Source: Candidatus Moraniibacteriota bacterium
Lineage (GTDB): Bacteria; Patescibacteriota; Minisyncoccia; Moranbacterales; UBA2206
NCBI GenBank assembly: GCA_049303795.1
Contig: JBAQNM010000004.1
Span: 8,623 to 72,622 of the forward strand
Reading direction: 5' to 3'
DNA: 64,000 nt
Under the pieces are notes generated by a model. It was not told where the DNA came from and did not search any database. It saw nothing but the letters and a program-made list of their open reading frames with translations. Below, piece after piece: positions 16,193 through 58,580 of this stretch. Made by a program: the position numbers and the translations under genes. The stretch's first letter is position 1, and each line of letters begins with the position of its first letter.

Positions 16193-16984
16193 TTAAAAAA
16201 GAGAAAGATACCAGTTGGCTATTGAATTATAATAAAAAATTGTGACAATCGTTCCCAAGACTAGAAATGGCGCGAAAGGAACCTGACTACTCATTTTTTT
16301 CTGCTTAATTATTATTAAAATTATACCATAAATTGCACCAATAGCAAAAGCTAAAAATAATCCCAAAAGAATTTCCGGCCAACCAAGAATAAGCCCAAGT
16401 AAAATAACCAGATAAACATCACCCATACCCATCCATTTTTCTTTAGAAAAAAAAGACAACAAAAAGAAGAAAATAAATGCCACAAAAGAACCTATTAAGC
16501 CGGAAAAAGTCAGACTATTAAAAATATTGCCATCGAAAGTAGACCATTCCAAATCAATCAAGAGATTACAAAAAACAGCCAAAATAACCGTTATCCAAAG
16601 TATAATACTGGGAATTTCCATATACAAAAAATCATACACCAAAATGACGATCAAAGCCGAAACGACGGTCAAATAATAAAAAGTAATAAACCATGTCTCC
16701 GTATCAGTTAGCACAAAAAACTTCAAACTCAAAAGAGCAAAAACAATTCCGGTTCCCAATTCGACGATTGGATAGATCCAAGAAATTTTTGTTTTGCAAT
16801 CGCGACATTTAAACCGAAGAAGAATGAAACTTATAACCGGAATATTGTCATACCAACGAATTTGTTTTTTGCATTTCGGACAATATGAACGCCCCATCAA
16901 TGTCTCCGCTAGATTAATTCGATAAACAACAACATTGAGAAAACTACCAATAATTAGTCCTAAAATGAAGAAAATTATTAGCAT
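16193..16984 (-). CDS. pilD: Prepilin peptidase (A24 family)
   Basis: N-terminal CPKC...CRDC zinc-binding domain, polytopic membrane protein. Confidence 0.9.
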   Translation of the reverse strand: MLIIFFILGLIIGSFLNVVVYRINLAETLMGRSYCPKCKKQIRWYDNIPVISFILLRFKCRDCKTKISWIYPIVELGTGIVFALLSLKFFVLTDTETWFITFYYLTVVSALIVILVYDFLYMEIPSIILWITVILAVFCNLLIDLEWSTFDGNIFNSLTFSGLIGSFVAFIFFFLLSFFSKEKWMGMGDVYLVILLGLILGWPEILLGLFLAFAIGAIYGIILIIIKQKKMSSQVPFAPFLVLGTIVTIFYYNSIANWYLSLF

Positions 16985-17524: not shown

Positions 17525-17920
17525 CTATAAACAGTCAGTTGAGTTATTAAATGCGACAGCACCAACAAACACACCGCTTTCCGTTACATTGACATCACAA
17601 GCGAGCGCTGCTGTAGTAGAGCCAAAAGCTTTAATATTTTGAGCTGTTATTGTAAATGTTCCTCCTGATGCAGCGCATGTATTAGCTCCAAGAGCCATCC
17701 AGTCAACATTTCCGGTATCAGTTGGAAGAACCAAAGCACCAGCATCGCATTGCATGACAAGTCCAGCCACACCACCACTGACTTCACCTATAAAAGCTGA
17801 CCTATTCGCCTTACCTCTTGCCCCACTCAAACTCACCAACACGATTGAAGCAAGAATACCAATAATCGCGATAACGATCAAAAGCTCAATCAAAGTGAAA
17901 CCTTTTTTCATATTATTCAT
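17525..17920 (-). CDS. pilA: Type IV major pilin
   Basis: KKGFTLIELLIVIAIIGILASIV is the canonical class III signal and N-methyl-Phe pilin N-terminus. C-terminal Cys pair. Confidence 0.9.
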   Translation of the reverse strand: MNNMKKGFTLIELLIVIAIIGILASIVLVSLSGARGKANRSAFIGEVSGGVAGLVMQCDAGALVLPTDTGNVDWMALGANTCAASGGTFTITAQNIKAFGSTTAALACDVNVTESGVFVGAVAFNNSTDCL

Positions 17921-17980
17921 TTAATTTCACCCCCCTTCCCTTCTTTTTTTATTTTCATTTTTGTCTTATTTCTAAAATAA

Positions 17981-18403
17981 TTATAAACAATCAGTATCAT
18001 TATTAAACGCTACTCCGCTAATAAAAATTCCACTTTCAGTGACATCAACAGCGCATAATCCTGCTGTTGTTATATTTCCAAAAGCTTTTACATTGTTTGC
18101 TGTTACATTAAATGTCCCAGTCGCTTCAGCGCAAGTACTTGCAGTAACTGCTGTCCAATTAACATTCCCCGTGCTAGTTGGAAGTCCGGTGCCATCCGTG
18201 AGTAGACCACCGTCATCACACAAACTCACAAGTCCAGCCACTGCCCCACCAACCTCTCCCACAAAAGCCGATCTATTCGCTTTGCCTCTGGCTCCACTCA
18301 AACTCACCAACACGATAGAAGCAAGGATACCGATAATCGCGATAACGATTAAAAGTTCAATAAGCGTAAAACCTTTTTTATTGTTTGTTTTTTTTATTTT
18401 CAT
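17981..18403 (-). CDS. pilA: Type IV major pilin, tandem paralog
   Basis: KKGFTLIELLIVIAIIGILASIVLVSLSGARGKANRSAF is identical to the neighbour over the N-terminal ~40 aa and conserved at the C-terminus (...NNDTDCL). Confidence 0.9.
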   Translation of the reverse strand: MKIKKTNNKKGFTLIELLIVIAIIGILASIVLVSLSGARGKANRSAFVGEVGGAVAGLVSLCDDGGLLTDGTGLPTSTGNVNWTAVTASTCAEATGTFNVTANNVKAFGNITTAGLCAVDVTESGIFISGVAFNNDTDCL

Positions 18404-19773: not shown

Positions 19774-20847
19774 TTAATATCGCAAAATAGTTTCAAAGTT
19801 TTTTCGATCACTGGAATAGGCTTGCGCAACTTCTAGTGAAATCAAACCTCTCCGTACTAAATCAGCTAATGATTTGTCCATTGTTATCATTCCTTCGCCA
19901 GATCCAGTCTCAATCACATTAGCAATTTGATAACTTTTATTTTCTCTAATCAAATTTTCGACGGCATGATTCTTAATCATTAATTCAACAGCAGGGACTC
20001 TTCCTTCTTTATCAATTCTCGGAATTAATCTTTGAGAAACAACTGCCAAAAGCACATTAGCTAATTGGGATCTGATTTGATTTTGTTGATGAGCTGGAAA
20101 AACATCCACGATTCTATCAATTGTTTGAGCTGCATCATTTGTATGCAATGTACCAAAAATCAGATGACCTGTTTCTGCCGCAGTTATAGCTGCACTGATT
20201 GTGTCTAGATCACGCATTTCACCAATCAAAATTACATTGGCATCTTCACGAAAAACCGCTTTTAAAGCTGACTGAAAAGATTCTGTATCTTGATAAACTT
20301 CTCTTTGATTGATTATTGAACGATCTTGCTCGTAAACATACTCAATTGGCTCTTCGATTGTTACAATATGCTTCTCCTCTCTATGATTTATTTCATTAAT
20401 CAACGCTGCCAGAGTTGTTGATTTCCCATGTCCAACCGGACCAACCATTAAAAGTAGCCCCTGAGAAACTTTAGTAAAATCATACAAAATATCCGGCATG
20501 TTCAATTCTTCCAATGTTTTTATTTCTTTGGAAATTAAGCGAAATGCAATACTGGTATAGCCTTGCTGAAAAAAAGCGTTAACACGAAAACGCACTTTGT
20601 CTTCAAGGTTATAGGAAAAATCAACTTGACCATCTTTTTCCATTTTCTTTTTTCTTTCCTCATCCAAAATAACTTCAAAGATTTCATGCGTATCATTTGG
20701 CGTTAAAATTGAATCTTGATTCAGAGGATAGAGTTTTCCATCAATTCGATAGGTTGGATAACGCCCAACAACAAGATGCAAATCTGAGGCACCTCTCTGA
20801 GCCGCTATCCTCAAAAGGTTTTTTATTTTTTGTTCAGTTCTTAACAT
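19774..20847 (-). CDS. pilT: Twitching-motility retraction ATPase
   Basis: Walker A GPVGHGKSTTLAA, with Asp and His boxes. 357 aa. Confidence 0.9.
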   Translation of the reverse strand: MLRTEQKIKNLLRIAAQRGASDLHLVVGRYPTYRIDGKLYPLNQDSILTPNDTHEIFEVILDEERKKKMEKDGQVDFSYNLEDKVRFRVNAFFQQGYTSIAFRLISKEIKTLEELNMPDILYDFTKVSQGLLLMVGPVGHGKSTTLAALINEINHREEKHIVTIEEPIEYVYEQDRSIINQREVYQDTESFQSALKAVFREDANVILIGEMRDLDTISAAITAAETGHLIFGTLHTNDAAQTIDRIVDVFPAHQQNQIRSQLANVLLAVVSQRLIPRIDKEGRVPAVELMIKNHAVENLIRENKSYQIANVIETGSGEGMITMDKSLADLVRRGLISLEVAQAYSSDRKNFETILRY

Positions 20848-47501: not shown

Positions 47502-47520
47502 GAATTAAAAATTTACACAT

Positions 47521-47592
47521 GGTGGCTATAGTTCAATGGTAGAACACTGGTTTGTGGTACCAGTTACAAGGGTCCGATTCCCTTTAGCCACC
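47521..47592 (+). tRNA. tRNA-His (GTG) with encoded G-1
   Basis: G-GTGGCTA...CTGGTTTGTGGTACCAG...GGGTCCGATTCCC..TAGCCAC-C. Eight-bp acceptor stem with G-1 paired to C73. Confidence 0.8.
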
Positions 47593-47607
47593 CCCGAAAA
47601 AAATAAT

Positions 47608-47681
47608 GCCTCCTTAGCTCAGCGGATTAGAGCGTCTGGCTTCGGACCAGAAGGTCGTAGGTTCGAATCCTGCAGGGGGCA
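47608..47681 (+). tRNA. tRNA-Arg (TCG)
   Basis: GCCTCCTTAGCTCAGCGGATTAGAGCGTCTGGCTTCGGACCAGA..GGTTCGAATCC..AGGGGGCA. Confidence 0.8.
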
Positions 47682-47977
47682 CATTGATGAACATCAAGGA
47701 ATTCTGAGGGTTCCTTAAAGGGCGTTTTCAGCTCTATTAAAACATTTTTTCCATCAACTAGTCGGTTCGAACTTACTTTTTTAATGATATACAGAGCAAT
47801 ACAGAGAAATTGTTTCTTTTGTAGAGACCGAAAGTTTATTGAAGAAAAAGAAAAAGAAAAAATAAATCACATAACTTTGCTTTTAGATAGTTTGGATTTA
47901 ATTTTCATTTAAAAAGACCAACGGTAATTTCTACCCTTGGCCTTTATATTCTTGATTCAATCGAATTTTAAACCCGT

Positions 47978-48469
47978 TTATTTTTTATGCTTCTCATAAA
48001 ATGCATCAATAAATTGAAAAACATTTTTTCTCATGCCGGGAATATCCGTTAAATCAATAAACTGCTGGAGTTGGTGAGCACATTCCATCCTTTGTTTGTA
48101 TCCAAAATTGTGAAAGAGGAATTCATTAAATTCGTCTATCTTAGCATTGAATTCGGCACTTTCCTTGTGGTTTTTTTCTACTGCTATTTTGGCTTCCTTT
48201 TCTTGCCTGTGGAGGTTTTCAATATATTCTTTTTCCGACCGTTGCCAGAGTTCTCTTTTCATATCTTTGGTCATCCATGGCGTTTTCCGCTTTTGAATCC
48301 GTAAGTTTTTTTGGTATATTTCATCCACTTCAAAATGCATTAGGGTTTTAAAAAAATAACTGAAAGGCCGGTGATTGAGTGCAAAGCTCAAAAGCTTAGC
48401 GCAGATTATCCAGTACGCTTGCCAAATAATAATTTTAAACTTAATAATTTTCATACTTTGTGAATTCAT
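47978..48469 (-). CDS. Hypothetical protein
   Basis: Start set at ATG 48469 (MNSQSMKII...) with an AAGGAG Shine-Dalgarno 7 nt upstream; the track's longer ORF starts at 48520. Basic, helical, no recognised domain. Confidence 0.5.
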   Translation of the reverse strand: MNSQSMKIIKFKIIIWQAYWIICAKLLSFALNHRPFSYFFKTLMHFEVDEIYQKNLRIQKRKTPWMTKDMKRELWQRSEKEYIENLHRQEKEAKIAVEKNHKESAEFNAKIDEFNEFLFHNFGYKQRMECAHQLQQFIDLTDIPGMRKNVFQFIDAFYEKHKK

Positions 48470-48649
48470 GCCCTGCTCCTTCTTTTTAGGTTTGATTGGA
48501 AACAACAATGAAAAGAACAATTAACAACTTGAAATTCTAGTATATACTGTTGATTCTGTCAATTCGGTGGGGGGGAGAGGGGAAATGAGTCACACAACGG
48601 GCATTCTTGCGACACTCCTAAGGATTAAGAAAAAATCCCGAAGTGTTGA

Positions 48650-49100: not shown

Positions 49101-49421
49101 TCACTTTAAATTAAAAATGTCCGGAACATCTTTTATTTCTTCTTGATATTTATATTCTCGTGTTTGCTTTTTATCTATAATAATTTTAAATTTATCCAAA
49201 TCGAAAGTTACTTCGTTGTTTTTTGTTTTAGCATATTCACTCTTTTTAACTTCACTCCAGTGAGGTTTATAGGCATAGTCATACCAAACATAAAAACAAT
49301 AGCCCGCTAAAAACAAAAACAATAAAAAAACAAACAGTTTCATCTGCGCAACAAAAAATAGCGATACTTGATTAAAAAAATATTGAGAGAGCACTTTGTT
49401 TTTAATATTTTTTATTTTCAT
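49101..49421 (-). CDS. Hypothetical small membrane protein (pilus-cluster associated)
   Basis: 106 aa with a single TM helix. Last gene of the cluster. Confidence 0.45.
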   Translation of the reverse strand: MKIKNIKNKVLSQYFFNQVSLFFVAQMKLFVFLLFLFLAGYCFYVWYDYAYKPHWSEVKKSEYAKTKNNEVTFDLDKFKIIIDKKQTREYKYQEEIKDVPDIFNLK

Positions 49422-49423
49422 AT

Positions 49424-50122
49424 TTATTTAGTGTAAACAATAACCGTCAGAGAACTTTTCAAGACAAAATTGTCTTTCTGTGATGATTCATCTTGATTAG
49501 AATTTTTAGGAACACGAAAAATATCACCTACCTTCAATTCATCGCCTAATGATTCAGCTTTATCTTCTAAATCTTTCTTAACATTAAGCGCTATAATATT
49601 AACGTAATTCTGACTATTCTCTAATTTATGTACAAAATTTAAAAGCTTGGGATAATCACCGGTCAAATTAATTTGCATAGAAAAATAATTTCGATAAGTT
49701 AATTTTTCTTCCAGACTCTTTTCAACTTCTTTTCCTTTACTTGATAAACTTTTACTACTAACTTTCGTATTTACTTTTGTATTTCCATTACTATCAATCA
49801 TTTCAATTGTAATCTCATTCCCCGTATTTTCAGCTAACTTTTCAATATACTCAATAAAACCAACATTCTCACTAACATTTAGTATGGAATTAATAGCATC
49901 TTTGTTTTTTTCAAATTCAGCATTAATCTCCTCCATTTGTGGAATTTTCTCAATTTTTTGTTTTTCCAGACTATTATCGATGATTTTCTCTTGAATTTTA
50001 TCAGCTCGACTTTGAATATTTTTAAACAATAAAGTTGTCACAAAATAAAATAGTGGGATTGCAAATACAATAAATACGAAGATATAAACTAAGCTTTTAT
50101 ATTTTTTATAAAAATTTTTCAT
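49424..50122 (-). CDS. PilO-like assembly protein
   Basis: N-terminal TM helix plus coiled-coil, directly downstream of the PilM-PilN fusion. Confidence 0.5.
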   Translation of the reverse strand: MKNFYKKYKSLVYIFVFIVFAIPLFYFVTTLLFKNIQSRADKIQEKIIDNSLEKQKIEKIPQMEEINAEFEKNKDAINSILNVSENVGFIEYIEKLAENTGNEITIEMIDSNGNTKVNTKVSSKSLSSKGKEVEKSLEEKLTYRNYFSMQINLTGDYPKLLNFVHKLENSQNYVNIIALNVKKDLEDKAESLGDELKVGDIFRVPKNSNQDESSQKDNFVLKSSLTVIVYTK

Positions 50123-51747
50123 TCTTGTTTACTATTAAGACATTCCTCTTTTATAGTTAAATCCATCTGAAAATTAACATTGTCTTTTGAAGCCAAGTTG
50201 GATATTGGCAAATTGACTTGAGAAAAACAACCTAGCTGTTCTAATTTCCCTTTAAAAGAAACCATGGATTCTCTTGTTTTCGCATGACCTGCTAAGTATA
50301 AAGAGAGATTTTTCGTAGCAAAATCAGTTATCTCAACTTCTTCAGTTGCAGCAGAAGCTAATTCGGAAAGCATTCGAGACCAATATAGCTGATCCCTATC
50401 AATTGTAATAATTTTCTCAAGATCAGAATTTATACCTGAAAATTTATCTTCATAATATTTAATCATTTCGTACTGAGTGCCACTCGATTGACTCATGCTT
50501 GAATCAGAAATTGTTGCTAAATTTAAATTTAATAAATTTCCAATACTAAATAAAAAAGAAAAAAAACAAAGCACAATAAAAGAAATTATTAATTCCCACC
50601 CCAAAACCAATTTAAATCTCTTAGCCCGAGCAAGTGCTTCTTTTTTATTTTTTGGCAAAAGATTTATCCCCTGTCCTTCAAAATCTTTATACATTGCCAA
50701 ACCTACTGCTGTAGAAAATTGAGTAGACCTATCTTTATTGATAATTGGCAAGTTATTTCCAAAATCAAGATTAACCCAAGGATCGCCGATACTAACCTCT
50801 TTAGCTAATCTTTTTGTCAAATAGGACAACAAACCTTTTAGATTTGATCCACCACCACAAATAATAATCTTTTTTATTTTTGCTCCGACTTCGCCATTAA
50901 TGCTTTGATAGAAATCAATTGATTTTTCAATCTCCATTGCAAGACTTTCCAAATATGATTGCATTGAGTTTAAGATTGAACTTTCTTTATTGACTTGCCC
51001 TAGGCCTTGAGAAAGCTTAATTTTTTCCGCATCCTTATTGTCTATTCCTAGACTTTTTGCAATTGCATCAGTTACGCCTTCTGAAGAAAAAGGAATACTG
51101 GATGTGAAGAAAGGAATTCCATCTTGGGCAACAATAAAATTAGTAATTTTTGATCCCAAATCAACAATCAGTGAAGCGCTTTTTAATTTATTTTTATTCT
51201 GAATAAGACTCCTAATCGCAGCAATAGATTCTGACTCTAATGCAACCACTTCGAGATTTGCCAATTCTAAAACTTCTAAAATATCATCTGCTATGTCACG
51301 AGAAACCGCAACAGTCAAAATACTTAATTTGTTATCTTTATTACCAATTAAGCGCCAATCGTAGTAAATTTGATCGATAGAAAGGGGAATACTCGCTTCA
51401 ATTTCCCATTTTATAGCTTCTTCAATTTCTGATTTTTCCATATGAGGGATCGTGATGATTCTCAGAAAAATCTTTGATTCAGGTAACGAGCATATCGCTT
51501 TTTTAGTATTAATTTTTTTAGGACCGGCACTGTTGATAGCTTTTTTTATAAGTTCAGCAACTCTCTTCTTATCCAAAATACGTCCATCCGCAAAATAATC
51601 GTTAGGAATATCTACCAAGGAATAAGCTCTAATATAATCGCTAGCATTTCTTTTTTCTAATTGCAAAACCTTAAAAGAGAGCTCGCTGAGATCTATCCCG
51701 ACATATCTGTCTTCAAAATTAATTATTTTTTTATTTAAAAAATTCAT
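50119..51747 (-). CDS. PilM-PilN fusion protein
   Basis: N-terminal actin-like PilM (YVGIDLSELSFKVLQL...), a TM helix (LVLGWELIISFIVLCFFSFLF), then a PilN-like C-terminal domain. 542 aa. Confidence 0.7.
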   Translation of the reverse strand: MNFLNKKIINFEDRYVGIDLSELSFKVLQLEKRNASDYIRAYSLVDIPNDYFADGRILDKKRVAELIKKAINSAGPKKINTKKAICSLPESKIFLRIITIPHMEKSEIEEAIKWEIEASIPLSIDQIYYDWRLIGNKDNKLSILTVAVSRDIADDILEVLELANLEVVALESESIAAIRSLIQNKNKLKSASLIVDLGSKITNFIVAQDGIPFFTSSIPFSSEGVTDAIAKSLGIDNKDAEKIKLSQGLGQVNKESSILNSMQSYLESLAMEIEKSIDFYQSINGEVGAKIKKIIICGGGSNLKGLLSYLTKRLAKEVSIGDPWVNLDFGNNLPIINKDRSTQFSTAVGLAMYKDFEGQGINLLPKNKKEALARAKRFKLVLGWELIISFIVLCFFSFLFSIGNLLNLNLATISDSSMSQSSGTQYEMIKYYEDKFSGINSDLEKIITIDRDQLYWSRMLSELASAATEEVEITDFATKNLSLYLAGHAKTRESMVSFKGKLEQLGCFSQVNLPISNLASKDNVNFQMDLTIKEECLNSKQE

Positions 51748-51801
51748 AATGTTATTATACCATAAGTTCTAGGATTTATCCTATTTTTTATTTAAATAAA
51801 A

Positions 51802-53340
51802 TTATAATTCTTCCCAAAGATCAATTGCATACTCCGTTCCAGTTGGAAAATAGGGCGGCGGACAATAGAGTAAGTTATTATCATAATTATAAAGTCGAAC
51901 AGCAAAGCCACTATTACCGTGTTGAAAATATGGTTGCAGATAAGAAGCAATTGCTCCATTAAAGACTAGCGACGTCTTTCCGCTAAATCCATTATCATTT
52001 ATACCAACTGTCCCTAGTTGCGCTAAAATAGCGGCGTCAACTACATATTGGTCCGGACAAGTACCCAAAACTCTAACGTCACGCTCAGCAATTAAGCCAA
52101 GCGAGTTGTCACAATTATAAGCAACATAACGAATATTACTATTAGTTGTTCCAATATAAATATCAGAGGAAGCGCCCCTGGCTACGACGGTTATTCTTTT
52201 ATTATTGACTGTACCATCTAGCCATATGCTATTATCAACAAAAATTACTCCGTTATTTATAATAGAATAGTTATCCAAACTAACACATTTTCCTCTACTC
52301 TGCCTATTTGATTGTATATAAGGACAAGATGAGAAAATACAACATGAAGATGTGGTACAAGTATTTCCATTGGTTCCACTATAAGATCCAGAAGCGCCAC
52401 TGACAATTCCATCAAAAGAGCTTATTACGTGAGTGTTAGAATTGGCCGAATTCACTTTGCATACATCATAAGTTCCATTGCTTTTTATTATTATCCTCCT
52501 TCCTTGTCCGGAATTATCAAAATAACGTCCAGAGCCAGATATAGCTTTGTTATACATATTAGTAAGATTAGCTGAAACTCCAGTGAAACTGACCTCGGAA
52601 ATAGGAAATTCTCTTCCGCCCATAAAAACATCTGGCCGTTCAGGAATAGTACCATCTGGCCAAGGATACGCCGGCGCATGAGCATCTGCTGGATTTACGG
52701 TTGTGTGAACTCCAAACTCTTGACTGTTTCCTCCCCATGTCGGATCGTTAAATCTTGGCAAAAGTGAACTAACCGTGTTATGCGCTAAGCCATCAAAACG
52801 AATGCCATCATTAGAATGCACTTTCCCATACACCTCAGCTTCACTACCAAAATTCATAAAGCTATTAGATAAGAATGAATACTCACTCCAGGAAGGTCTT
52901 CTAAATCTCACCTTAACAGTTCTTTTCATATCAGGAAATTTATTCGACCAGCCAGTTGATTCAACATTAATTATTGTAGAACCAATAGCCGGAGGTTCTA
53001 TGGAGAGTTGATATGCGCCCATGCTATTATAATACTCCACCGGATCAGGAGAAAAACCCATAGGCCCGCCAGTTTCCAAAAAAGAATTAATTTCTAAAGC
53101 AGTCTTGCCAGAAGTTTCATGAGCAAGATACCATCTGTAATAATATATTCCTGCTTCTGCAATTTGAAAAGCCTTTTCTTTTTCAACACGATTAATGCTA
53201 AATTTAATTTGTGAAGTAATGTACCCGAGCATAGAAACTAGTATTATCGTAACTACCGTCATAATGACAAGCACATAAGCTAATGTCGATCCGCGTTGCT
53301 TTTTAAAGCATGCTTCTTTTTTATTCAATACCTGTTTCAT
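51802..53340 (-). CDS. PilX_N-domain large pseudopilin-like protein
   Basis: N-terminus QRGSTLAYVLVIMTVVTIILVSMLGYI is PilX_N-like and lacks Glu5. Large Gly/Ser/Asn-rich beta-type C-terminal region. 512 aa. Confidence 0.6.
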   Translation of the reverse strand: MKQVLNKKEACFKKQRGSTLAYVLVIMTVVTIILVSMLGYITSQIKFSINRVEKEKAFQIAEAGIYYYRWYLAHETSGKTALEINSFLETGGPMGFSPDPVEYYNSMGAYQLSIEPPAIGSTIINVESTGWSNKFPDMKRTVKVRFRRPSWSEYSFLSNSFMNFGSEAEVYGKVHSNDGIRFDGLAHNTVSSLLPRFNDPTWGGNSQEFGVHTTVNPADAHAPAYPWPDGTIPERPDVFMGGREFPISEVSFTGVSANLTNMYNKAISGSGRYFDNSGQGRRIIIKSNGTYDVCKVNSANSNTHVISSFDGIVSGASGSYSGTNGNTCTTSSCCIFSSCPYIQSNRQSRGKCVSLDNYSIINNGVIFVDNSIWLDGTVNNKRITVVARGASSDIYIGTTNSNIRYVAYNCDNSLGLIAERDVRVLGTCPDQYVVDAAILAQLGTVGINDNGFSGKTSLVFNGAIASYLQPYFQHGNSGFAVRLYNYDNNLLYCPPPYFPTGTEYAIDLWEEL

Positions 53341-53403
53341 TTTTTATTTTTTTAATGTTATAAAATTATATACCTAAAATATGATACTTTCTTGATATTA
53401 TCC

Positions 53404-54081
53404 TTAGTGAATTCTGTCATAATCATTTAGGTTTCGCATTTCAACAAATGATTGCATTTCAATATTATCAGGAGCCCGATTAGGGTCAATATTTATTTTA
53501 AGATTAATCTTTATTAGACGAATATTGGTAATATTGGCTGGCGTTGTTAATGGAAGTTGAGAAGGAGCGCCAGCGTAGTTTCCATCATAATAATAGAAAA
53601 TTGGCTCACTTTCTGTATTTACAATTCTATTCGCAATAACAATAGTCTCCTCATCACCTCCAGGATAAGTTTTAGGCATTGTCATTGTTGGCTCGGTAAC
53701 ACCCATCAAAATATTTTGACCATCCTTATATATATGTAACCTTTCAGTTATTCCATCACGATTATAATCCGAATAGACGACGAAATCATTATCATCCGCT
53801 GATTCAATTGGATAGGAACCACTATCAGACTGTCTGGCACTCCTCAAATAACCTCCTATCATATTAACTCCTCGAGAAACTGCCATAGAAGATTGTCCCA
53901 TCTCTAGAGTATATGCATTATTTTTCCAGGTATTCATAAAAAGTAAGGTGAAACCTTCCATACCTATGGCAAAAATAGCAATAGCCACTAATGTTTCAAC
54001 TAGAGTCAAGCCTTTCCTGCTAATTCTTTCTCTAGAACTAGCAATTATTTTTTTTTGTTTGTTTAAAATTTCTTTTTTCAT
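53404..54081 (-). CDS. Type IV minor pilin / pseudopilin
   Basis: RKGLTLVETLVAIAIFAIG prepilin motif. The start overlaps the upstream stop (TAATG). Confidence 0.7.
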   Translation of the reverse strand: MKKEILNKQKKIIASSRERISRKGLTLVETLVAIAIFAIGMEGFTLLFMNTWKNNAYTLEMGQSSMAVSRGVNMIGGYLRSARQSDSGSYPIESADDNDFVVYSDYNRDGITERLHIYKDGQNILMGVTEPTMTMPKTYPGGDEETIVIANRIVNTESEPIFYYYDGNYAGAPSQLPLTTPANITNIRLIKINLKINIDPNRAPDNIEMQSFVEMRNLNDYDRIH

Positions 54082-55457
54082 TATATTACGGGCTGCAATC
54101 TTACAACTTCCAATTTAAGACTATCAACCTCAATTGCAACATCAACCTCTTTATCTAAAAATCCATCAGCTGTAACTTTTATATGATAGGTTTCAGGTAA
54201 AAATGGATCGGCCGAATCTGGAAAAAAAACTTTTCCATCACTGTCAGTTATTAGATCTTTTTCATAGCCCAGAGTGACATTGGTTAGTTTAACATTTGCT
54301 CCAGAAATAGTTGAGTCATCGGTATCACTAATTATTGTAGCCAAAAGAGCAGTTACTGTTTTGCTCGCTAGTTTCACTTCAACAGATAAAGTTCCGTCTG
54401 AGGATAATAATAGAAATGGCGTAGTTTCAGCTGTATTAATTATTTCGTAATCATCAGCTGTTGAACCTATTAAAGAAAGGTTATACTCTCCAGGACTGAC
54501 TGAGCTGAGTACTTCTTTACCACTAGAATCAGTTGTAATATCGTCATCAAAACTATAAACTGGAGTAAAGGGATCGATTGCCATATTGCCAAGTTTTCTG
54601 CCTCCAGTAAGATGAAAGTTGGCATTGGAAATCGCTTCATTAAGATAGTTAACACTAGAAATTTCGATATTGGCTAATTTATTTTGAACAATATCTTTTA
54701 CATTCATTGAACCAGTCACAACCGAAGCATGAATATCAACCGGGGTATAGAGGTTTTCAGGATAAGGAGGCATGGTCATGACTGTTTCGTAGCCTGATTT
54801 TGTTATAGCAAGTTGATATTTCTGGATGGAATCAGTTACATTACTACCCATAAAAGTTACATTACCTGAAGCGTCTGTCATGCCATAGGTATTAATCCCT
54901 GTATCTGGGTTATATATTTGCACCTTGGCATCGGAAATGCCAGCTCCACCTGGCTGATTACTAAAAATATTGACAGAAAGAATCCCATCTCCAATATGAG
55001 GCACCTCTTTGCCTGGAGGAACAAAACGCGAAACCAATTCAACTTTGCTGCTATTTTCTCCGCTACCCCATGAAACAGTCACGGTGACTTTTTTATAGTC
55101 CTCAAACCAAACCGTATCGGCAAAAGCAATCCCATCAAAAGGATCATCCACATACACTACATCGATGTGCACATTATAATGACTAGCATTTTCTGATACA
55201 TTCTCATCCTGAGGAATATTTCCTTCAATAGCGCCCCCGCTAGTACCAATATCATCATATTTAAGATTACGTATAATTTCTATTTTTTCATTAGCAATCG
55301 CAAGGGCACCAAGTCTATTTTTTGAGTCTTGAATATAGCGAATGCCCACAGATAAAACAGAATAGAATGTTACTGTGATTAGGGAAAAAATAAACAAAAC
55401 GGTCAACGCCTCGATCAACAAAAAACCTTTTTTATCAACAGATTGGCTTGATTTCAT
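54081..55457 (-). CDS. Large minor pilin (PilV-like)
   Basis: KKGFLLIEALTVLFIFSLI prepilin motif. 458 aa with beta-rich, carboxypeptidase-regulatory-like repeats. Confidence 0.7.
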   Translation of the reverse strand: MKSSQSVDKKGFLLIEALTVLFIFSLITVTFYSVLSVGIRYIQDSKNRLGALAIANEKIEIIRNLKYDDIGTSGGAIEGNIPQDENVSENASHYNVHIDVVYVDDPFDGIAFADTVWFEDYKKVTVTVSWGSGENSSKVELVSRFVPPGKEVPHIGDGILSVNIFSNQPGGAGISDAKVQIYNPDTGINTYGMTDASGNVTFMGSNVTDSIQKYQLAITKSGYETVMTMPPYPENLYTPVDIHASVVTGSMNVKDIVQNKLANIEISSVNYLNEAISNANFHLTGGRKLGNMAIDPFTPVYSFDDDITTDSSGKEVLSSVSPGEYNLSLIGSTADDYEIINTAETTPFLLLSSDGTLSVEVKLASKTVTALLATIISDTDDSTISGANVKLTNVTLGYEKDLITDSDGKVFFPDSADPFLPETYHIKVTADGFLDKEVDVAIEVDSLKLEVVRLQPVI

Positions 55458-55462
55458 TTTTT

Positions 55463-56683
55463 TTATTTAATATTATCCATTATGCTATACATTGGCTGAA
55501 GCATGGAAACAGCAAAAAAACCAACTGCACCTCCAATAAACACCATCAGAACAGGCTCGATAATCGATGACATGTTTTTTGAAATTTGGCTAATCTCATC
55601 TTCGTAAAATTCAGCTAGCTTCAAAAGCACGCTTTCAGTTTTTCCAGTTTCTTCTCCTACTTGAATCATTTGCACCATCAGCACGGGGAAAATCTTAGCT
55701 TTTTTTTCAATAATATTACTCAGTGCTACTCCTTTTTGCACCTCTTCAGCACTCTCATTGAGAGCATCCTTATAATAATAATTAGTTAACGTATCAGCGA
55801 CAATTTTAAGCGATGCAACTACAGGTACACCACTTCGAAGAAGTGAACTATAGATTCTGGCAAACCTTGCACAATTGTTTTTTATAACCAAATTGCTAAC
55901 AAGCGGGATATTAATAAGAGTGAAGGCTAAAGTTTTTTTTCCCATTTTTGTGGTAAGGAAAAATTTAAGAAAAATCCCACCAAATACAAAAATGATAAGC
56001 AAAATTATATAATGATTTCTGATTGTATCGCTAAGTAAAATAAGAAACTTAGTTGAAGCGGGAAGATCAACATTCATATCCTTAAATACTCCCATCATCT
56101 TAGGAAGGATATAGGTTAACATTAGAACGCCAATTGCAATCATCACAACAATAATGACTGCTGGATAGATTAGAGCGCCTTTAATTTTACTGTTTAACTC
56201 ATGCTCTTTTTCCAATTGAATTGCTAGTATTCCTAGAATTTCTTCCAAATTTCCACTCGTCTCTCCTACTCTAATCATATTAACAAAAAGATCGCCGAAG
56301 ATTGATGGGTACCTCGCAAGTCCATCAGCAAAAGTAACACCGGCTTGAATATCCTCAAAAATATTATTTAAAATTTTCTGAAACTTTTTATTTTTGGTCT
56401 GTGTAGAGATATTTTTTACTGCTCGTGAAATTGGTAGACCAGAGGAAATCATCACACTCAAATTACGCGTAAACATCAATTTGTCTTTAAGTGAAATGCT
56501 GGAAAAACGATCCATAAACCTCACGCTCACCTTATTCTCTTTTTCTTCTTCAAGCTCCTTAAAGGAGGTCAACATGAATCCATCCGCCCTAAGTTGAGCA
56601 GCTAAATCCCTTTCATTACTAATATCCACTTCTCCAGTTTTTAATTCTCCTGAATAATTTTTAGCGCTATAGAATGCTCTCAT
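55463..56683 (-). CDS. pilC: Type IV pilus/T2SS platform protein (GspF family), second copy
   Basis: 406 aa with two GspF repeats and three TM segments. Confidence 0.9.
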   Translation of the reverse strand: MRAFYSAKNYSGELKTGEVDISNERDLAAQLRADGFMLTSFKELEEEKENKVSVRFMDRFSSISLKDKLMFTRNLSVMISSGLPISRAVKNISTQTKNKKFQKILNNIFEDIQAGVTFADGLARYPSIFGDLFVNMIRVGETSGNLEEILGILAIQLEKEHELNSKIKGALIYPAVIIVVMIAIGVLMLTYILPKMMGVFKDMNVDLPASTKFLILLSDTIRNHYIILLIIFVFGGIFLKFFLTTKMGKKTLAFTLINIPLVSNLVIKNNCARFARIYSSLLRSGVPVVASLKIVADTLTNYYYKDALNESAEEVQKGVALSNIIEKKAKIFPVLMVQMIQVGEETGKTESVLLKLAEFYEDEISQISKNMSSIIEPVLMVFIGGAVGFFAVSMLQPMYSIMDNIK

Positions 56684-56739
56684 AATTTTTATTTTTGTTA
56701 AACAAGATGACCACTAAGATTTATAACCAAATTTATACG

Positions 56740-58485
56740 CTATTCTTTTGTTACTCTTAATATTTCCTCGACTGTTGTTATTCCTTGAATACACTTTAAA
56801 AATCCATCTTCAACCATTGTCAACATGCCACCCTCTCTAGCTTCAACTTCCAATTCATGAGCCGAGGCTCTTTGTGAAATCATCTGACGAATTTTTTCAT
56901 TTATTTCTAAAACTTCATAAATACCATTTCTTCCATGGTAGCCCTCATTGCATTGTTCACAGCCCTTAGCCTTGAACAATTTTACATCTTCCCATTTGTC
57001 TTTCACTTTCAATTGATTTTTCAAAATAGCGCTTTTTTTAATTTGTTCCAAAATTTTATCCATATCATAATTCTTTTTAAGCACATCTATTTCTTTTTTA
57101 GTCATCTTATATTCAACCGCACAATCATGACAAACCTTACGTACTAAGCGCTGGGCGATAATAACATTAGTGGTTGAAGCAACTAAGAATGGCTCTGCGC
57201 CCATATCCAAAAGTCGCGGCAAAGTTCCTGCTGCGCTGTTAGTATGAAGCGTTGAAAGAACAAGATGTCCGGTCATTGCGGCTTGAATGGCCATTTCCAT
57301 TGTTTCCTTATCTCTAATTTCACCCACCATAATTATATCGGGATCTTGACGGAGTAAAGCACGTAAACCTGCTGCAAAAGTTAAGCCTACTTTTGGATAA
57401 ATTTGAGTTTGATTAATTCTTGGCATTCTATATTCTACTGGATCCTCCACTGTGCTGATATTAACATCCGAGGTGTTTAAAATATCCATAATTGTATAAA
57501 GTGTAGTGGTTTTACCGCTTCCAGTTGGTCCAGTTACCAAAATCATTCCATTTGGTTTTCGAATTTCATAATGTACCGCCTCCAATGCCTTGCCAGAAAA
57601 TCCCATTGACTCTAAGGTTAGCCCCTTTGAAGACTCATCCAGGAGACGCATTACTATTTTTTCCCCATCAAAAATTGGTAAAATGCTTACTCGAAAAGAC
57701 ATTTTAGTACCATCTCTTTCGATCTTAAAACGCCCATCCTGAGGGATACGATGCTCATCTAATTTCAAATTGGATAAAACTTTTATTCTTGCCGTTATTC
57801 CATCTTTTACCTGTTTAGGGAGTGTCATCGCTTCGTGGAGTATTCCGTCAATACGATATCTTACGCGAATTTCTTTTTCATCCGGTTCAATATGAATATC
57901 AGAAGCACCTTGGATTATTGCATGTTTAATTAAAGTATCGACGATACGAATTATCGGTAAACCCTGAGCAATTTCTTCTAAATCTTCCGAATTTTCTGAA
58001 TCCGCAATTTCAGAAACATTTTTATCAATCATGTCCCCAAATTCAGCCTTTAAACTCTTTCCGTATTGCCTAAGCACTGCTTCAATACTCTCTTCGGAAG
58101 TTATACAAATAACGATACGCAATCCAGTTTTTTTGCGAATAAAATCAACTGTTTGGATATCTTCGGGATTAAGCATCGCGATTTTTAGCTCTGCTCCATT
58201 TTTTTCAAAGGCAACAATTTTGTATTTTTTAGCAATAGGCTCTGGAACTAGCTGCAAAATATCCGACTCAATCGTTTCTTTTTGCAAATCGACAAAAGGA
58301 ACGCCTAAAATATAAGCATACAATTTGCGTAGTCGCATTTCATCAATTAATTTTTTACCCAAAATAACATCTCCCAGTTTTTTTGACTGATCTTTAGCTT
58401 CCTGAAAAGAGACTTCCAAATCTTTTTCCTCAATCATTCCAGCATCTTTGATGAAATCTCTTAGTTGTTCATTACTTATTCGCAT
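56740..58485 (-). CDS. pilB: Type IV pilus/T2SS assembly ATPase (GspE family), second copy
   Basis: GSPII_E N-terminal domain, Walker A GPTGSGKTTTL and tetracysteine CHDC...CEQC. 581 aa. Confidence 0.9.
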   Translation of the reverse strand: MRISNEQLRDFIKDAGMIEEKDLEVSFQEAKDQSKKLGDVILGKKLIDEMRLRKLYAYILGVPFVDLQKETIESDILQLVPEPIAKKYKIVAFEKNGAELKIAMLNPEDIQTVDFIRKKTGLRIVICITSEESIEAVLRQYGKSLKAEFGDMIDKNVSEIADSENSEDLEEIAQGLPIIRIVDTLIKHAIIQGASDIHIEPDEKEIRVRYRIDGILHEAMTLPKQVKDGITARIKVLSNLKLDEHRIPQDGRFKIERDGTKMSFRVSILPIFDGEKIVMRLLDESSKGLTLESMGFSGKALEAVHYEIRKPNGMILVTGPTGSGKTTTLYTIMDILNTSDVNISTVEDPVEYRMPRINQTQIYPKVGLTFAAGLRALLRQDPDIIMVGEIRDKETMEMAIQAAMTGHLVLSTLHTNSAAGTLPRLLDMGAEPFLVASTTNVIIAQRLVRKVCHDCAVEYKMTKKEIDVLKKNYDMDKILEQIKKSAILKNQLKVKDKWEDVKLFKAKGCEQCNEGYHGRNGIYEVLEINEKIRQMISQRASAHELEVEAREGGMLTMVEDGFLKCIQGITTVEEILRVTKE

Positions 58486-58546
58486 TTAATATTTATTTTA
58501 TTTTTATTCTTTTATATTTCGAATTATACCACAAAAAATTAAAAAT

Positions 58547-58580
58547 TAAAAACAACCCTGAATATCTAGGGTTGTTTTTA
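58547..58580 (-). terminator. rho-independent terminator after groEL
   Basis: Perfect stem acaaccct / agggttgt, loop gaatatct, with A-run and T-run flanks. Confidence 0.7.

What the first reader, a model, noticed from the sequence alone, without database searches (positions are those of the whole stretch)
49101..58485. Second, pilin-less pilus/T2SS-like cluster with a PilM-PilN fusion: candidate competence or secretion pseudopilus distinct from the main T4aP operon
This cluster duplicates the ATPase (pilB2) and platform (pilC2) genes. It encodes two prepilin-type minor pilins (G|LTLVET and G|FLLIEA), a 512-aa PilX_N-like protein, a single-polypeptide PilM-PilN fusion (542 aa), a PilO-like protein and a small membrane protein. 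It has no major pilin, no pilT and no prepilin peptidase.

This is the gene set expected for a short pseudopilus such as a Com pilus or T2SS-like piston. A comF-like gene lies elsewhere in the window at 28201-28917. DNA uptake is a plausible function.
Basis: inference. Interest (0 to 1): 0.5.

Follow-up and report, generated by a model that had tools for sequence, protein, structure and literature searches.

The report
Second pilus machine with ComZ-like tip
This is a second, ancient type IV pilus assembly module of an uncultured Moraniibacteriota (CPR) bacterium; it carries its own three-protein pilus tip, one member of which is predicted to fold like the DNA-binding tip pilin ComZ of Thermus, but it must borrow the main pilin, the pilin-processing enzyme and any retraction motor from the first pilus operon.

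Summary
Window 49101-58485 (minus strand) is a tight eight-gene operon: pilB2, pilC2, three pilin-like genes (458, 225 and 512 aa), a PilM-PilN fusion, a weak PilO/GspM-like gene and a small membrane-protein gene. It has no major pilin, pilT or pilD.

The organism is a Candidatus Moraniibacteriota MAG. The module is conserved in order across about 80 species, never with a major pilin. 26 species lack pilB2 in the cluster. The M-N fusion is a rare, repeated lineage event.

PilB2 and PilB1 are 41% identical, so they are old paralogs. Both score best against T4aP PilB, not ComGA or GspE. PilMNO is present and no secretin is found. The cluster is therefore T4aP-lineage, not Com or T2SS.

- 458 aa: a GspI-like pilin followed by three CnaB/transthyretin-like domains.
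- 512 aa: a GspK-like, Glu5-less cap with an ice-binding-type beta-solenoid. ComZ is the only significant PDB match.

Best reading: a satellite T4P module with its own tip complex, using cluster-1 pilin and PilD. The ligand is unresolved. The ComZ fold favours DNA. Acidic tip proteins and the Saccharibacteria T4P-2 precedent favour adhesion. It is a new variant of a known kind, of moderate interest.

The parts
56740..58485 (-). pilB2, extension ATPase (581 aa) with a full N-terminal MshEN region
   Evidence: T2SSE E 2e-132 and MshEN E 1e-15. TIGR02538 PilB 590 bits, above GspE 547 and far above ComGA 251. Best solved relatives are T4aP PilB at 448 bits. 41% identical to PilB1.
55463..56683 (-). 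pilC2, platform protein (406 aa)
   Evidence: T2SSF E 1e-60, two repeats. GspF/PilC models score 288-320 bits against ComGB 160. 35% identical to PilC1. Present in all 72 related loci that cover this position.
54081..55457 (-). Modular minor pilin (458 aa): GspI/PilV-like pilin domain followed by three transthyretin/CnaB-like beta-sandwich domains
53404..54081 (-). Minor pilin (225 aa); GspJ/PilW-type by position and size (inferred)
   Evidence: RKG|LTLVET with Glu5; N_methyl E 9e-6. Family members hit only minor-pilin models (PilV 30/37, ComGE 24, ComGF 20, GspI 16, GspJ 16) and never major-pilin models. GAST 26% against 42% for the cluster-1 major pilins. The globular part has no match to any solved-structure sequence.
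51802..53340 (-). ComZ-like cap pilin (512 aa): GspK-like pilin domain without Glu5, plus a large ice-binding-protein-type beta-solenoid
50119..51747 (-). PilM-PilN fusion (542 aa): actin-like PilM, linker, one TM helix (about 380-398), PilN domain
   Evidence: PilM_2 E 4e-45; PilN 22.1 bits. TIGR01175 E 3e-51 and Amuc_1101 family E 6e-43. Residues 360-540 are 44% identical to a standalone PilN. TM helix. The junction joins PilM's C-terminus to PilN's GINLLP motif.
49424..50122 (-). PilO/GspM-like bitopic protein (232 aa)
   Evidence: N-terminal TM helix. T2SSM_b E 0.015. The family profile hits Myxococcus PilO 3jc8, E 0.0064. T2SSM 9/37, PilO 7/37 and T2SSM_b 4/37 members. It always follows pilN.
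49101..49421 (-). Small single-pass membrane protein (106 aa), conserved last gene, function unknown
   Evidence: One TM helix at 21-39. No Pfam or NCBIfam hit. An ortholog was detected in 47 of the 80 related loci; several of those loci end before this position.
58495..58580 (-). Boundary with groEL: terminator-like hairpin (58547-58580), then a weak promoter-like site (58495-58522)
   Evidence: Consensus scan only: 13-bp stem plus T-run, and a 9/12 promoter match. This suggests, but does not show, a separate transcription unit.
16193..16984 (-). pilD, the only prepilin peptidase in the window (cluster 1); inferred trans-acting partner
   Evidence: A24_N_bact E 2e-32 and Peptidase_A24 E 3e-11. 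The 458-aa and 225-aa proteins have canonical class III signal peptides, and no peptidase lies in cluster 2.
17525..18403 (-). Two tandem major-pilin paralogs (140 and 131 aa) in cluster 1; inferred source of the filament subunit
   Evidence: N_methyl E 1e-10 to 4e-10. They hit major-pilin models GspG, PilA and ComGC. GAST 42%. 71% identical to each other. Use by machine 2 is inference.
19774..20847 (-). pilT, the only retraction ATPase in the window (cluster 1); possible shared partner
   Evidence: TIGR01420 449 bits, above its cut-off of 319. Sharing with machine 2 is inference.

Best explanation
Cluster 2 is a satellite type IVa-lineage pilus assembly module of a Candidatus Moraniibacteriota (Parcubacteria/CPR) bacterium.

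**What it encodes**
- Its own platform (PilC2).
- Its own cytoplasmic-membrane alignment complex: PilM-PilN (fused here), a PilO-like protein and a small membrane protein.
- Its own extension ATPase (PilB2), in this genome.
- Its own tip or priming complex of GspI/J/K-type minor pilins:
  - a GspI-like subunit extended by three Ig-like (CnaB/transthyretin) domains;
  - a 225-aa J-position subunit;
  - a Glu5-less GspK-like cap carrying a ComZ-type beta-solenoid.

**How it most likely works**
Type IV filaments grow from tip to base. The module would therefore start a filament with this specialised tip. It would then polymerise a major pilin encoded elsewhere, most simply one of the two tandem PilA paralogs of cluster 1. 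Both prepilins and the major pilin would be cut by the single PilD of cluster 1. Any retraction would rely on the cluster-1 PilT. The product is a second pilus whose job is ligand capture by its tip.

**The ligand is not resolved**
- Extracellular DNA, by analogy with ComZ/PilA2 of Thermus.
- A conserved polymer on a host or surface, by analogy with Saccharibacteria T4P-2 and beta-helix or CnaB adhesins.

**Shown:** gene content, paralogy, conservation and predicted folds.
**Inferred:** trans-use of pilin, PilD and PilT; tip location; and function.
For: **Gene content and operon**
- Domain content and tight operon structure.

**T4aP lineage**
- PilB2 and PilC2 score best on T4aP/GspE-F models and far lower on ComGA/ComGB.
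- PilB2 scores best against solved T4aP PilB structures.
- PilM and PilN are present, with a PilO-like protein. PMC10191384 describes the acquisition of PilMNO as giving rise to T4aP, from which T2SS and MSHA later diversified; Com split off separately.

**Old paralogy with cluster 1**
- Identities are 27-41%.

**Conservation**
- The order pilC2, 458, 225, 512, pilM, pilN, 232 (and 106) holds in about 72-80 species-level loci.
- Median identities to the window are 40-60% for the pilC2, 458, 225, 512 and pilM/N proteins, and 30-34% for the last two genes.
- None of these loci has a small prepilin ORF, pilT or pilD in the cluster.

**Tip complex**
- Those are the same two structural neighbours (GspK and an ice-binding protein) that were reported for ComZ itself (PMC6561018).
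- The 512-aa protein lacks Glu5, as cap subunits do (PMC10191384).
- The 225-aa family hits only minor-pilin models.

**Trans-dependence**
- Two canonical class III signal peptides are in the cluster, but the only A24 peptidase, the only PilT and the only major-pilin-like genes of the window are in cluster 1.
- 26 species lack pilB2 in the cluster. The module can evidently rely on partners encoded elsewhere.

**Precedent**
- In Nanosynbacter lyticus TM7x, a second PilB/C/M/N/O locus without pilT or pilD builds a distinct thin pilus from a major pilin encoded in another locus (PMC11623550).
Against: - No experiment or expression data exist for this organism.
- Use of a cluster-1 pilin by machine 2 is inferred, not shown. 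The real major pilin could lie elsewhere in the genome, of which only 64 kb (plus about 10 kb) was seen.
- The GspJ-type assignment of the 225-aa protein rests on gene order, size and weak N-terminal matches only.
- The PilO-like call is weak.
- ComZ similarity is at fold level only. Identity is 12-14%, and the family profile does not hit the ComZ sequence.
- The folds are AlphaFold predictions. I could not inspect coordinates to confirm where the solenoid is inserted.
- No proper phylogeny with named T4aP, T2SS, Com and Tad references could be built with these tools.
Confidence: 0.62

Rival explanations
1. DNA-capture (competence) pilus. The ComZ-like cap, together with the GspI-like partner, is a tip DNA receptor. 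The module feeds DNA to ComEC/ComFC for transformation or nucleotide scavenging. This is a specific version of the best explanation and is.
For: - ComZ binds DNA, is essential for DNA uptake in Thermus (its mutants keep their pili), and pairs with PilA2, for which GspI is a close structural homolog (PMC6561018). Here, the pilin domain of the 458-aa protein is GspI-like.
- Arg140, Arg145 and Arg147 are invariant and Arg148 is nearly so (motif RFRRPSW). They sit at the sequence junction between the pilin domain and the solenoid. The ComZ DNA-contact lysines lie between its two domains (PMC6561018).
- The tip proteins are unusually conserved for pilins: median 40-56% identity across species. That fits a universal ligand.
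- A ComF-family gene is in the window.
- Com genes and T4P are widespread in CPR (PMC10633639).
Against: - There is no sequence-level link to ComZ.
- All three tip proteins are acidic: net charge about -32, -8 and -7, with a family median pI of 5.2 for the 512-aa protein and 4.4 for the 458-aa protein.
- In TM7x, deleting pilB2, pilA2 or pilX2 of the analogous second pilus left transformation unchanged (PMC11623550).
- No comEC, comEA or dprA lies in the window.
Confidence: 0.3
2. Host- or surface-adhesion pilus. The Ig-like stalk and the beta-solenoid bind a cell-wall glycan or another polymer of a host or substrate, as Saccharibacteria T4P-2 does with its large-domain minor pilin PilX2. This is also a specific version of the best explanation.
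For: - The TM7x second pilus has the same kind of locus: PilB2/C2/M2/N2/O2, with no PilT or PilD. It promotes host binding, not motility or competence, through a minor pilin that carries a bulky accessory domain (PMC11623550).
- CnaB, SpaA, SdrD_B and transthyretin-like domains are typical of Gram-positive adhesins and pilus shafts.
- The acidic surface charge disfavours DNA.
- In most relatives a HisKA kinase and a receiver protein sit directly upstream of pilB2, which suggests environmental control.
Against: - Adhesins that recognise specific hosts usually diversify. Here the tip proteins are about as conserved as the cytoplasmic PilM.
- The accessory folds differ from those of TM7x PilX1 and PilX2 (jelly-roll and beta-propeller; PMC11623550).
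- Orthology with the TM7x locus was not tested.
- The host or lifestyle of Moraniibacteriota is unknown.
Confidence: 0.32
3. T2SS-like secretion piston. A short pseudopilus made of the I/J/K-type proteins pushes folded proteins through the wall or S-layer, driven by PilB2, PilC2 and a GspL-like (PilM-N) and GspM-like pair.
For: - The gene order (E, F, I-like, J-position, K-like, L-like, M-like) is collinear with gsp operons.
- There are weak hits to GspK (E 3e-4), T2SSL (E 0.006) and GspM/T2SSM.
- The fused PilM-N has the GspL architecture.
- The cluster has no pilT.
Against: - No secretin, GspC or GspG-type major pseudopilin was found in the window.
- T2SS is restricted to diderms (PMC10191384), and CPR cells are regarded as lacking an outer membrane (my own knowledge).
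- PilB2 is closer to T4aP PilB than to GspE.
- The L-like fusion is absent from all 80 GTDB species loci and arose independently in a few lineages, so it is not a system-defining trait.
- The minor pilins of T4aP and T2SS correspond one-to-one (PilH/I/J/K to PulH/I/J/K; PMC10191384), so the I/J/K resemblance does not discriminate.
Confidence: 0.05
4. Tip-only stub. The module assembles only its three pilin-like proteins into a short membrane-anchored spike, without any major pilin. The three Ig-like domains serve as a spacer that spans the wall.
For: - A major pilin is absent from the cluster in every one of about 80 species.
- The 458-aa protein carries a stalk of three beta-sandwich domains.
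- 26 species also lack a dedicated ATPase in the cluster.
Against: - Known type IV filaments always combine minor pilins with a major pilin (PMC10191384).
- Major pilins are available in the same genome.
- Keeping a dedicated platform, alignment complex and, usually, an ATPase argues for real polymerisation.
Confidence: 0.08

Closest known systems
Saccharibacteria (Nanosynbacter lyticus TM7x) T4P-2 locus (Grossman et al., PMC11623550 / PMC12206443)
   Same: - Both are in CPR bacteria with two T4P systems.
- Both second loci have PilB2, PilC2, PilM2, PilN2 and PilO2 but no PilT and no PilD.
- In both, the major pilin is not in the machinery locus.
- In both, a minor pilin carries a bulky accessory domain.
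- In both, the first locus holds PilT, PilD and several pilins.
   Different: - In TM7x, the pilins of T4P-2 sit together in a third locus. Here the three tip pilins sit inside the machinery operon.
- The accessory folds differ. TM7x has a beta-propeller (PilX2) and a jelly-roll (PilX1). Here there is a ComZ-type solenoid and CnaB-like repeats.
- Orthology was not tested.
- The phylum differs (Moraniibacteriota against Saccharibacteria).
- pilB2 is missing from the cluster in 26 related species.
Thermus thermophilus ComZ/PilA2 competence tip pilins (Salleh et al. 2019, PMC6561018; PDB 6qvi, 6qvf)
   Same: - The predicted two-domain architecture of the 512-aa protein matches ComZ: a GspK-like pilin domain plus an ice-binding-protein-type beta-solenoid.
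- Neither protein has a typical prepilin signature: the 512-aa protein lacks Glu5, and ComZ was not recognised as a type IV pilin by PilFind (PMC6561018).
- A GspI-like partner pilin is encoded nearby.
   Different: - Identity is 12-14%, and the family profile does not hit the ComZ sequence.
- Thermus is a diderm. It encodes comZ inside its pilA1-pilA4 pilin operon, next to the major pilin, and I recall that it uses one shared machinery.
- Here the ComZ-like gene sits in a dedicated second machinery operon without a major pilin.
- The partner here carries three extra Ig-like domains.
- DNA binding is untested, and the proteins are acidic.
T4aP/T2SS core minor-pilin tip complex (PilH-I-J-K / GspH-I-J-K; GspK-I-J structure 3ci0)
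   Same: - The order is I-like, J-position, K-like.
- The cap subunit lacks Glu5.
   Different: - There is no H-type subunit in the cluster.
- Both the I-like and the K-like subunits carry large extra domains.
- The J assignment is not structurally tested.
GspL, and Amuc_1101-family PilM-like proteins (single-chain PilM-plus-membrane-segment proteins)
   Same: The window's 542-aa protein joins an actin-like PilM domain, one TM helix and a PilN-type domain in one chain. It matches the Amuc_1101 family model over residues 59-477 (E 6e-43), with a weak T2SSL hit.
   Different: - It is clearly a recent fusion of adjacent, overlapping pilM and pilN genes.
- Relatives at 61-64% identity keep them separate.
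- Fused forms with different junctions occur in a few separate lineages.

Membership tests
Type IVa pilus (T4aP) machinery | PilB-type extension ATPase and PilC-type platform | tested here: met
   T2SSE E 2e-132 and T2SSF E 1e-60. The best NCBIfam model for PilB2 is TIGR02538 PilB at 590 bits, below its strict equivalog cut-off of 675. The best solved relatives are T4aP PilB.
Type IVa pilus (T4aP) machinery | PilM-PilN-PilO cytoplasmic-membrane sub-complex | tested here: met
   PilM_2 E 4e-45. PilN shown by alignment to a standalone PilN. PilO-like support is only weak.
Type IVa pilus (T4aP) machinery | Major pilin, prepilin peptidase and PilT belonging to the system | tested here: inconclusive
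   None is in the cluster. All three are present 30 kb away in cluster 1. Sharing is inferred, not shown.
Type IVa pilus (T4aP) machinery | Core minor-pilin tip complex capped by a Glu5-less subunit | tested here: met
   GspI-like and GspK-like folds. The 512-aa protein lacks Glu5. The J-type is inferred and the H-type is absent.
Com (ComG) competence pilus of monoderms | ComGA/ComGB-type motor and platform | tested here: not met
   ComGA model 251 bits (cut-off 300) against PilB 590. ComGB 160 bits (cut-off 240) against GspF/PilC 288-320.
Com (ComG) competence pilus of monoderms | No PilMNO sub-complex; major pilin ComGC in the operon | tested here: not met
   PilM and PilN are present, with a PilO-like protein. 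No major pilin is in the operon. The rule is taken from PMC10191384.
Type II secretion system | Secretin GspD with GspC; outer membrane | tested here: not met
   No secretin or GspC domain was found in any ORF of 100 aa or more in the window that I scanned. Only 64 kb was seen. That CPR cells lack an outer membrane is my own knowledge and was not tested.
Type II secretion system | Major pseudopilin GspG in the operon | tested here: not met
   No small prepilin is in the cluster, here or in about 80 species.
Type II secretion system | GspE/GspF/GspL/GspM orthology | tested here: inconclusive
   GspE 547 bits, below PilB 590. GspL and GspM hits have E values of 0.006-0.015. The fusion is lineage-specific. 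No reference phylogeny was possible.
ComZ-type tip pilin | GspK-like pilin domain with a large ice-binding-type beta-solenoid | tested here: met
ComZ-type tip pilin | Detectable sequence homology to ComZ | tested here: not met
   A profile of 37 family members gives no hit to ComZ among PDB sequences at E up to 10. Structural alignments show 12-14% identity.
ComZ-type tip pilin | DNA binding and requirement for transformation | not testable with these tools
   Indirect evidence only: acidic proteins, and a basic RFRRPSW motif (three Arg invariant, one nearly so) at the domain junction.
Saccharibacteria-type T4P-2 | Second PilB/C/M/N/O locus lacking PilT and PilD, with the major pilin encoded elsewhere | tested here: met
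   compared with PMC11623550. That the major pilin is encoded elsewhere is shown only as absence from this cluster.
Saccharibacteria-type T4P-2 | Orthology of the machinery genes with TM7x locus two | not tested

The most novel reading that the evidence does not exclude
Moraniibacteriota (Parcubacteria) carry a dedicated DNA-receptor pilus. This would be a second T4aP-lineage machine whose only pilins are a conserved tip complex, built around a ComZ-like solenoid cap and an Ig-stalked GspI-like partner. It would be separate from the motility and adhesion pilus and would share that pilus's major pilin, PilD and PilT. That would identify a candidate DNA-binding component for DNA uptake in CPR bacteria. 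It would also show that the ComZ tip-receptor design is ancient and spread far beyond Thermus.
Probability: 0.3. Interest if true: 0.65.

Novelty: new variant of a known kind. Interest (0 to 1): 0.45.

Why it matters
- CPR/Patescibacteria are thought to depend on other cells. Type IV pili are among their most conserved surface machines, yet only Saccharibacteria have been studied experimentally.
- This locus shows that a different, very large CPR lineage keeps a phylum-wide second pilus module. Its specificity lies entirely in a conserved tip complex.
- It gives two concrete, expressible proteins (the 512-aa ComZ-like cap and the 458-aa Ig-stalked pilin) with which to test DNA capture against host binding.
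- It is also a natural example of modular sharing between two pilus machines: the pilin, the peptidase, the retraction motor and, in some species, even the extension ATPase.
- It shows how easily PilM and PilN fuse into a GspL-like chain.

Tried and rejected
- **AFDB search.** A Foldseek search of afdb50 for the 512-aa model, to see how widespread the fold is, failed because the library was not available.
- **Profile searches against PDB sequences.**
  - 512-aa family: no meaningful hit.
  - 225-aa family: only N-terminal helix matches.
  - So the J-type assignment stays inferred.
- **Cluster-1 counterparts by hhalign.**
  - The 512-aa family against the 590-aa Cys-rich protein of cluster 1 shows no relationship.
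  - The 225-aa family against the cluster-1 164-aa pilin aligns only over the N-terminal helix.
- **Walking beyond the window.** Look-up by the UvrA ORF failed, probably because the start codon differs from the called gene. The neighbouring 307-aa gene worked instead.
- **Phylogeny.** HMM and solved-structure score rankings were used as a proxy.
- **Rejected: the fusion is an assembly frameshift.** It recurs in independent assemblies and lineages.
- **Rejected: the 225-aa protein is the major pilin.** It has low GAST (26%) and hits only minor-pilin models.
- **Rejected: the 180-aa ORF at 47978-48520 is a pilin.** It has no prepilin motif and no hit in the related loci.
- **Literature.** I found no paper linking ComZ to CPR, and none describing Moranbacteria pili in detail.

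Full report
**1. What is in the sequence**

Window 49101-58485 holds eight co-directional ORFs on the minus strand. From the listed coordinates, their spacings are 56, 5, -1, 63, 54, -4 and 2 nt.

Upstream lies groEL (58601-60268). It is followed by a 13-bp terminator-like hairpin and a weak promoter-like site (consensus matches only). Downstream lie an orphan 180-aa ORF and four tRNA genes, then vanW on the other strand.

Pfam and NCBIfam results:

| Protein | Result |
|---|---|
| PilB2 (581 aa) | T2SSE E 2e-132, MshEN |
| PilC2 (406 aa) | T2SSF E 1e-60 |
| 458 aa | KKG\|FLLIEA motif plus CarboxypepD_reg, SpaA and SdrD_B domains |
| 225 aa | RKG\|LTLVET, N_methyl |
| 512 aa | PilX_N E 1e-6; GspK model E 3e-4 |
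| 542 aa | PilM_2 at residues 17-352 and PilN at 458-531 (just under the Pfam cut-off), with one TM helix at about 380-398 |
| 232 aa | Bitopic protein with weak T2SSM_b/GspM hits |
| 106 aa | Single-pass membrane protein, no hit |

A six-frame scan for prepilin motifs finds only the 458-aa and 225-aa genes here, plus the cluster-1 pilins.

**2. The other pilus operon and the paralogy**

Cluster 1 (about 12938-25437, minus strand) encodes, in order:
- pilM, pilN, pilO and pilB1;
- a receiver-only response regulator;
- pilT and pilC1;
- two tandem major-pilin paralogs (140 and 131 aa; 71% identical; GAST 42%);
- a 118-aa membrane protein and pilD;
- three minor pilins;
- a 590-aa Cys-rich protein.

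Identities between the two clusters are 41% for PilB1/B2, 35% for PilC1/C2 and 27% for PilM1/M2. PilB2 orthologs from other species are 54-84% identical to the window's PilB2. The duplication is therefore older than the radiation of the phylum.

**3. Organism and conservation**

The exact proteins belong to a Candidatus Moraniibacteriota MAG on a 187-kb contig.

Gene neighbourhoods of homologs and 80 loci from GTDB species representatives were analysed with my own ORF caller and BLAST. The conserved layout is:

- uvrA, then a gene of about 310 aa;
- then groEL and/or a HisKA kinase with a receiver protein;
- then pilB2, pilC2, a pilin of about 460 aa, one of about 210-230 aa, a PilX_N protein of about 480-540 aa, pilM, pilN, a gene of about 210-260 aa and one of about 105-150 aa;
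- then vanW, hsp20 and tsaD on the other strand.

No locus has a small prepilin ORF, pilT or pilD inside the module.

Two variations matter:
- In 26 of 72 loci that cover the position, the 310-aa gene abuts pilC2 directly (gaps of 16-376 nt in most). That clade has no pilB2 in the cluster.
- pilM and pilN are separate in all 80 GTDB loci.

The fusion occurs only in the window's close relatives and in a few more distant lineages. The junction sequences differ between them. In unfused relatives the two genes overlap by 4-17 nt in different frames. The fusion is therefore a small, repeated event that tethers an already obligate pair. PilN's N-terminal INLLP-type motif is the known PilM-binding peptide (my own knowledge). 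The fusion is not a marker of a different system.

One genome (L005) has the fused pilMN and the two downstream genes close to cluster 1 instead.

**4. Which family**

PilB2 scores:
- NCBIfam models: T4aP PilB 590 bits, GspE 547, ComGA 251.
- Solved structures: T4aP PilB 448 bits, GspE 368.

PilB1 behaves similarly.

According to the T4F review PMC10191384:
- T4aP arose by gain of PilMNO.
- T2SS derives from T4aP and is restricted to diderms.

Cluster 2 has PilM and PilN and a PilO-like protein. The PilO-like call rests on a family-profile hit to PilO 3jc8 (E 0.0064) and on T2SSM or PilO hits in 9 and 7 of 37 members.

No secretin, GspC, ComEC, ComEA or DprA domain occurs in any scanned ORF of the window. 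A ComF-family gene does occur.

The cluster is therefore T4aP-lineage, not Com and not T2SS. The collinearity with gsp operons (E, F, I, J, K, L, M) is real. It is explained by the one-to-one correspondence between the T4aP and T2SS components (PMC10191384).

**5. The three pilin-like proteins**

Both large families are unusually conserved for pilins. The 512-aa family has 980 hits, and the 120 listed clusters are 53-74% identical. The 458-aa family is 46-88% identical over its listed clusters.

AlphaFold2 with 37-40-sequence alignments gave confident models: pLDDT 84.6 and 84.5.

*The 458-aa protein*
- Its N-terminal 70 residues align with the PilV-like 169-aa protein of cluster 1 (hhalign probability 95%).

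*The 512-aa protein*
- Its secondary structure runs in this order: a long N-terminal helix, a four-stranded pilin sheet, a beta-solenoid of about 330 residues and a final strand.
- Foldseek finds ComZ as the only significant PDB hit (E 3e-8).
- GspK and an ice-binding protein are the two structural neighbours that the ComZ paper reported for ComZ itself. In ComZ the solenoid is inserted before the last pilin strand (PMC6561018).
- The protein lacks Glu5 (G|STLAY), as tip-capping subunits do (PMC10191384).
- There is no sequence-level link to ComZ.

*The 225-aa protein*
- It has a canonical prepilin signal.
- Family-wide, it hits only minor-pilin models.
- Its J-type role is inferred from position and size.

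**6. Mechanism**

Type IV filaments are built from tip to base, starting with the minor-pilin complex (PMC10191384). The simplest reading has four steps:

1. Cluster 2 provides an alternative initiation site (PilC2 with PilM, PilN and the PilO-like protein, and PilB2 where present) and an alternative tip (I-like, J-position, K-like).
2. PilD of cluster 1 processes the two prepilins.
3. A major pilin encoded elsewhere fills in the shaft.
4. PilT of cluster 1 could retract the filament.

The two tandem PilA paralogs of cluster 1 are the obvious candidates for the shaft subunit. The clade without pilB2 in the cluster shows that the module tolerates borrowing even the motor.

This matches the logic demonstrated in Nanosynbacter lyticus TM7x. 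There, a second PilB2/C2/M2/N2/O2 locus without PilT or PilD builds a distinct thin pilus from PilA2, which is encoded in another locus (PMC11623550).

**7. What the tip binds**

For DNA:
- The ComZ fold. ComZ binds DNA, is essential for DNA uptake in Thermus (its mutants keep their pili), and pairs with PilA2, for which GspI is a close structural homolog (PMC6561018).
- A basic RFRRPSW motif (three Arg invariant, one nearly so) at the sequence junction of the two domains.
- High conservation, which fits a universal ligand.
- The general link between com genes and T4P in CPR (PMC10633639).

For adhesion to a host or surface polymer:
- CnaB-like stalk domains.
- Tapirin and polysaccharide-lyase-like beta-helix matches.
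- Strongly acidic tip proteins, with net charges of about -32, -8 and -7.
- A kinase and a receiver protein upstream in most relatives.
- In TM7x, the second pilus promotes host binding and is dispensable for transformation (PMC11623550).

I cannot separate these two readings with the tools available. I rate them about equal, near 0.3 each. The T2SS-like piston reading gets about 0.05. The reading in which the module assembles only its three tip pilins, with no major pilin, gets about 0.08.

**8. Novelty and verdict**

- Two T4P systems in a CPR bacterium, with a machinery locus lacking the major pilin, PilT and PilD, are already described for Saccharibacteria.
- The ComZ-type cap is described for Thermus.
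- What appears new, and was not found in the searched literature, is this combination in Moraniibacteriota:
  - a phylum-wide module that contains only a tip complex;
  - a ComZ-like solenoid cap and an Ig-stalked GspI-like pilin;
  - an ATPase that is missing from the cluster in some species;
  - recurrent PilM-PilN fusion.
- I file it as a new variant of a known kind, with moderate interest.
Its Com/T2SS label is not supported. Its DNA-uptake idea remains open and has gained one real, though indirect, piece of support.

Noticed in passing
window 12938-14710 (-): The last gene of cluster 1 encodes a 590-aa protein. It has an N-terminal TM helix, 40 cysteines and 37% Gly/Ala/Ser/Thr, and no Pfam or NCBIfam hit. 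It may be the tip or cap protein of the first pilus. It shows no profile similarity to the 512-aa protein.
   Followed up: partly
window 17525-18403 (-): Two tandem major-pilin paralogs (140 and 131 aa) are 71% identical, with an identical N-terminal helix. A relative (L005) also has two pilin genes after pilC1. One paralog could serve each machine.
   Followed up: partly
window 28150-28917 (+): The ComF-family gene scores E 1.5e-25 on TIGR00201. Its CxxC zinc-finger N-terminus lies in frame upstream of the first ATG/GTG/TTG (28369), directly after clpB. This suggests a non-canonical start codon or a mis-called start.
   Followed up: partly
L039, L040, L058-L065, L067, L069, L073-L075, L077-L079, L081-L083, L085-L087 (24 of the 26 loci; L071 and L076 have ~2-kb gaps): In 26 species-level loci, the conserved gene of about 310 aa abuts pilC2 directly. 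The module has no pilB2 and no kinase or receiver genes there. Whether pilB2 has moved elsewhere or PilB1 is shared is unknown.
   Followed up: partly
L005 (GCA_021833765.1) 1-13000: A fused pilMN, a 232-aa gene and a 107-aa gene sit six housekeeping genes downstream of pilB1, the response regulator, pilT, pilC1 and two pilins. They are not next to pilC2 or the three tip pilins. This is a rearranged or reduced arrangement.
   Followed up: no
L001 1610-3036; L003 1986-3376; L007 2058-3426: Most relatives carry a HisKA/HATPase kinase and a receiver-only response regulator immediately upstream of pilB2. The window has groEL there instead, and a receiver-only regulator between pilB1 and pilT (window 20870-21253).
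   Followed up: no
window 58321-58455 (-), PilB2 residues 11-55: The PilB2 N-terminus weakly matches the MshE-type c-di-GMP-binding motif model (NF053729, E 1.6e-4; cut-off not reached). PilB1 lacks this N-terminal stretch.
   Followed up: no
window 47336-47682 (+): A cluster of four tRNA genes (Arg-tct, Lys-ctt, His-gtg, Arg-tcg) lies between vanW and the pilus module. It is followed by a 180-aa orphan ORF (47978-48520, -) that has no homolog in the related loci.
   Followed up: no
L015, L023-L025, L037, L040, L046, L051 and others: Many GTDB species-representative records titled 'uncultured Bdellovibrionales bacterium' carry this Moraniibacteriota-type module with the same flanking genes. 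The record titles are probably taxonomic mislabels.
   Followed up: no
window 30447-31193 (+): A 248-aa protein has a SpaA/transthyretin-like prealbumin fold hit and a weak match to a radical-SAM-associated lipoprotein model. It is another surface-type beta-sandwich protein, located near the comF-like gene.
   Followed up: no
L088 1853-9995 (sibling assembly GCA_049286985.1, beyond the window's 3' end): Two UvrA paralogs (965 and 933 aa) flank uvrC and a YgjP-like gene upstream of the module. There is no pilin motif in these 10 kb.
   Followed up: yes
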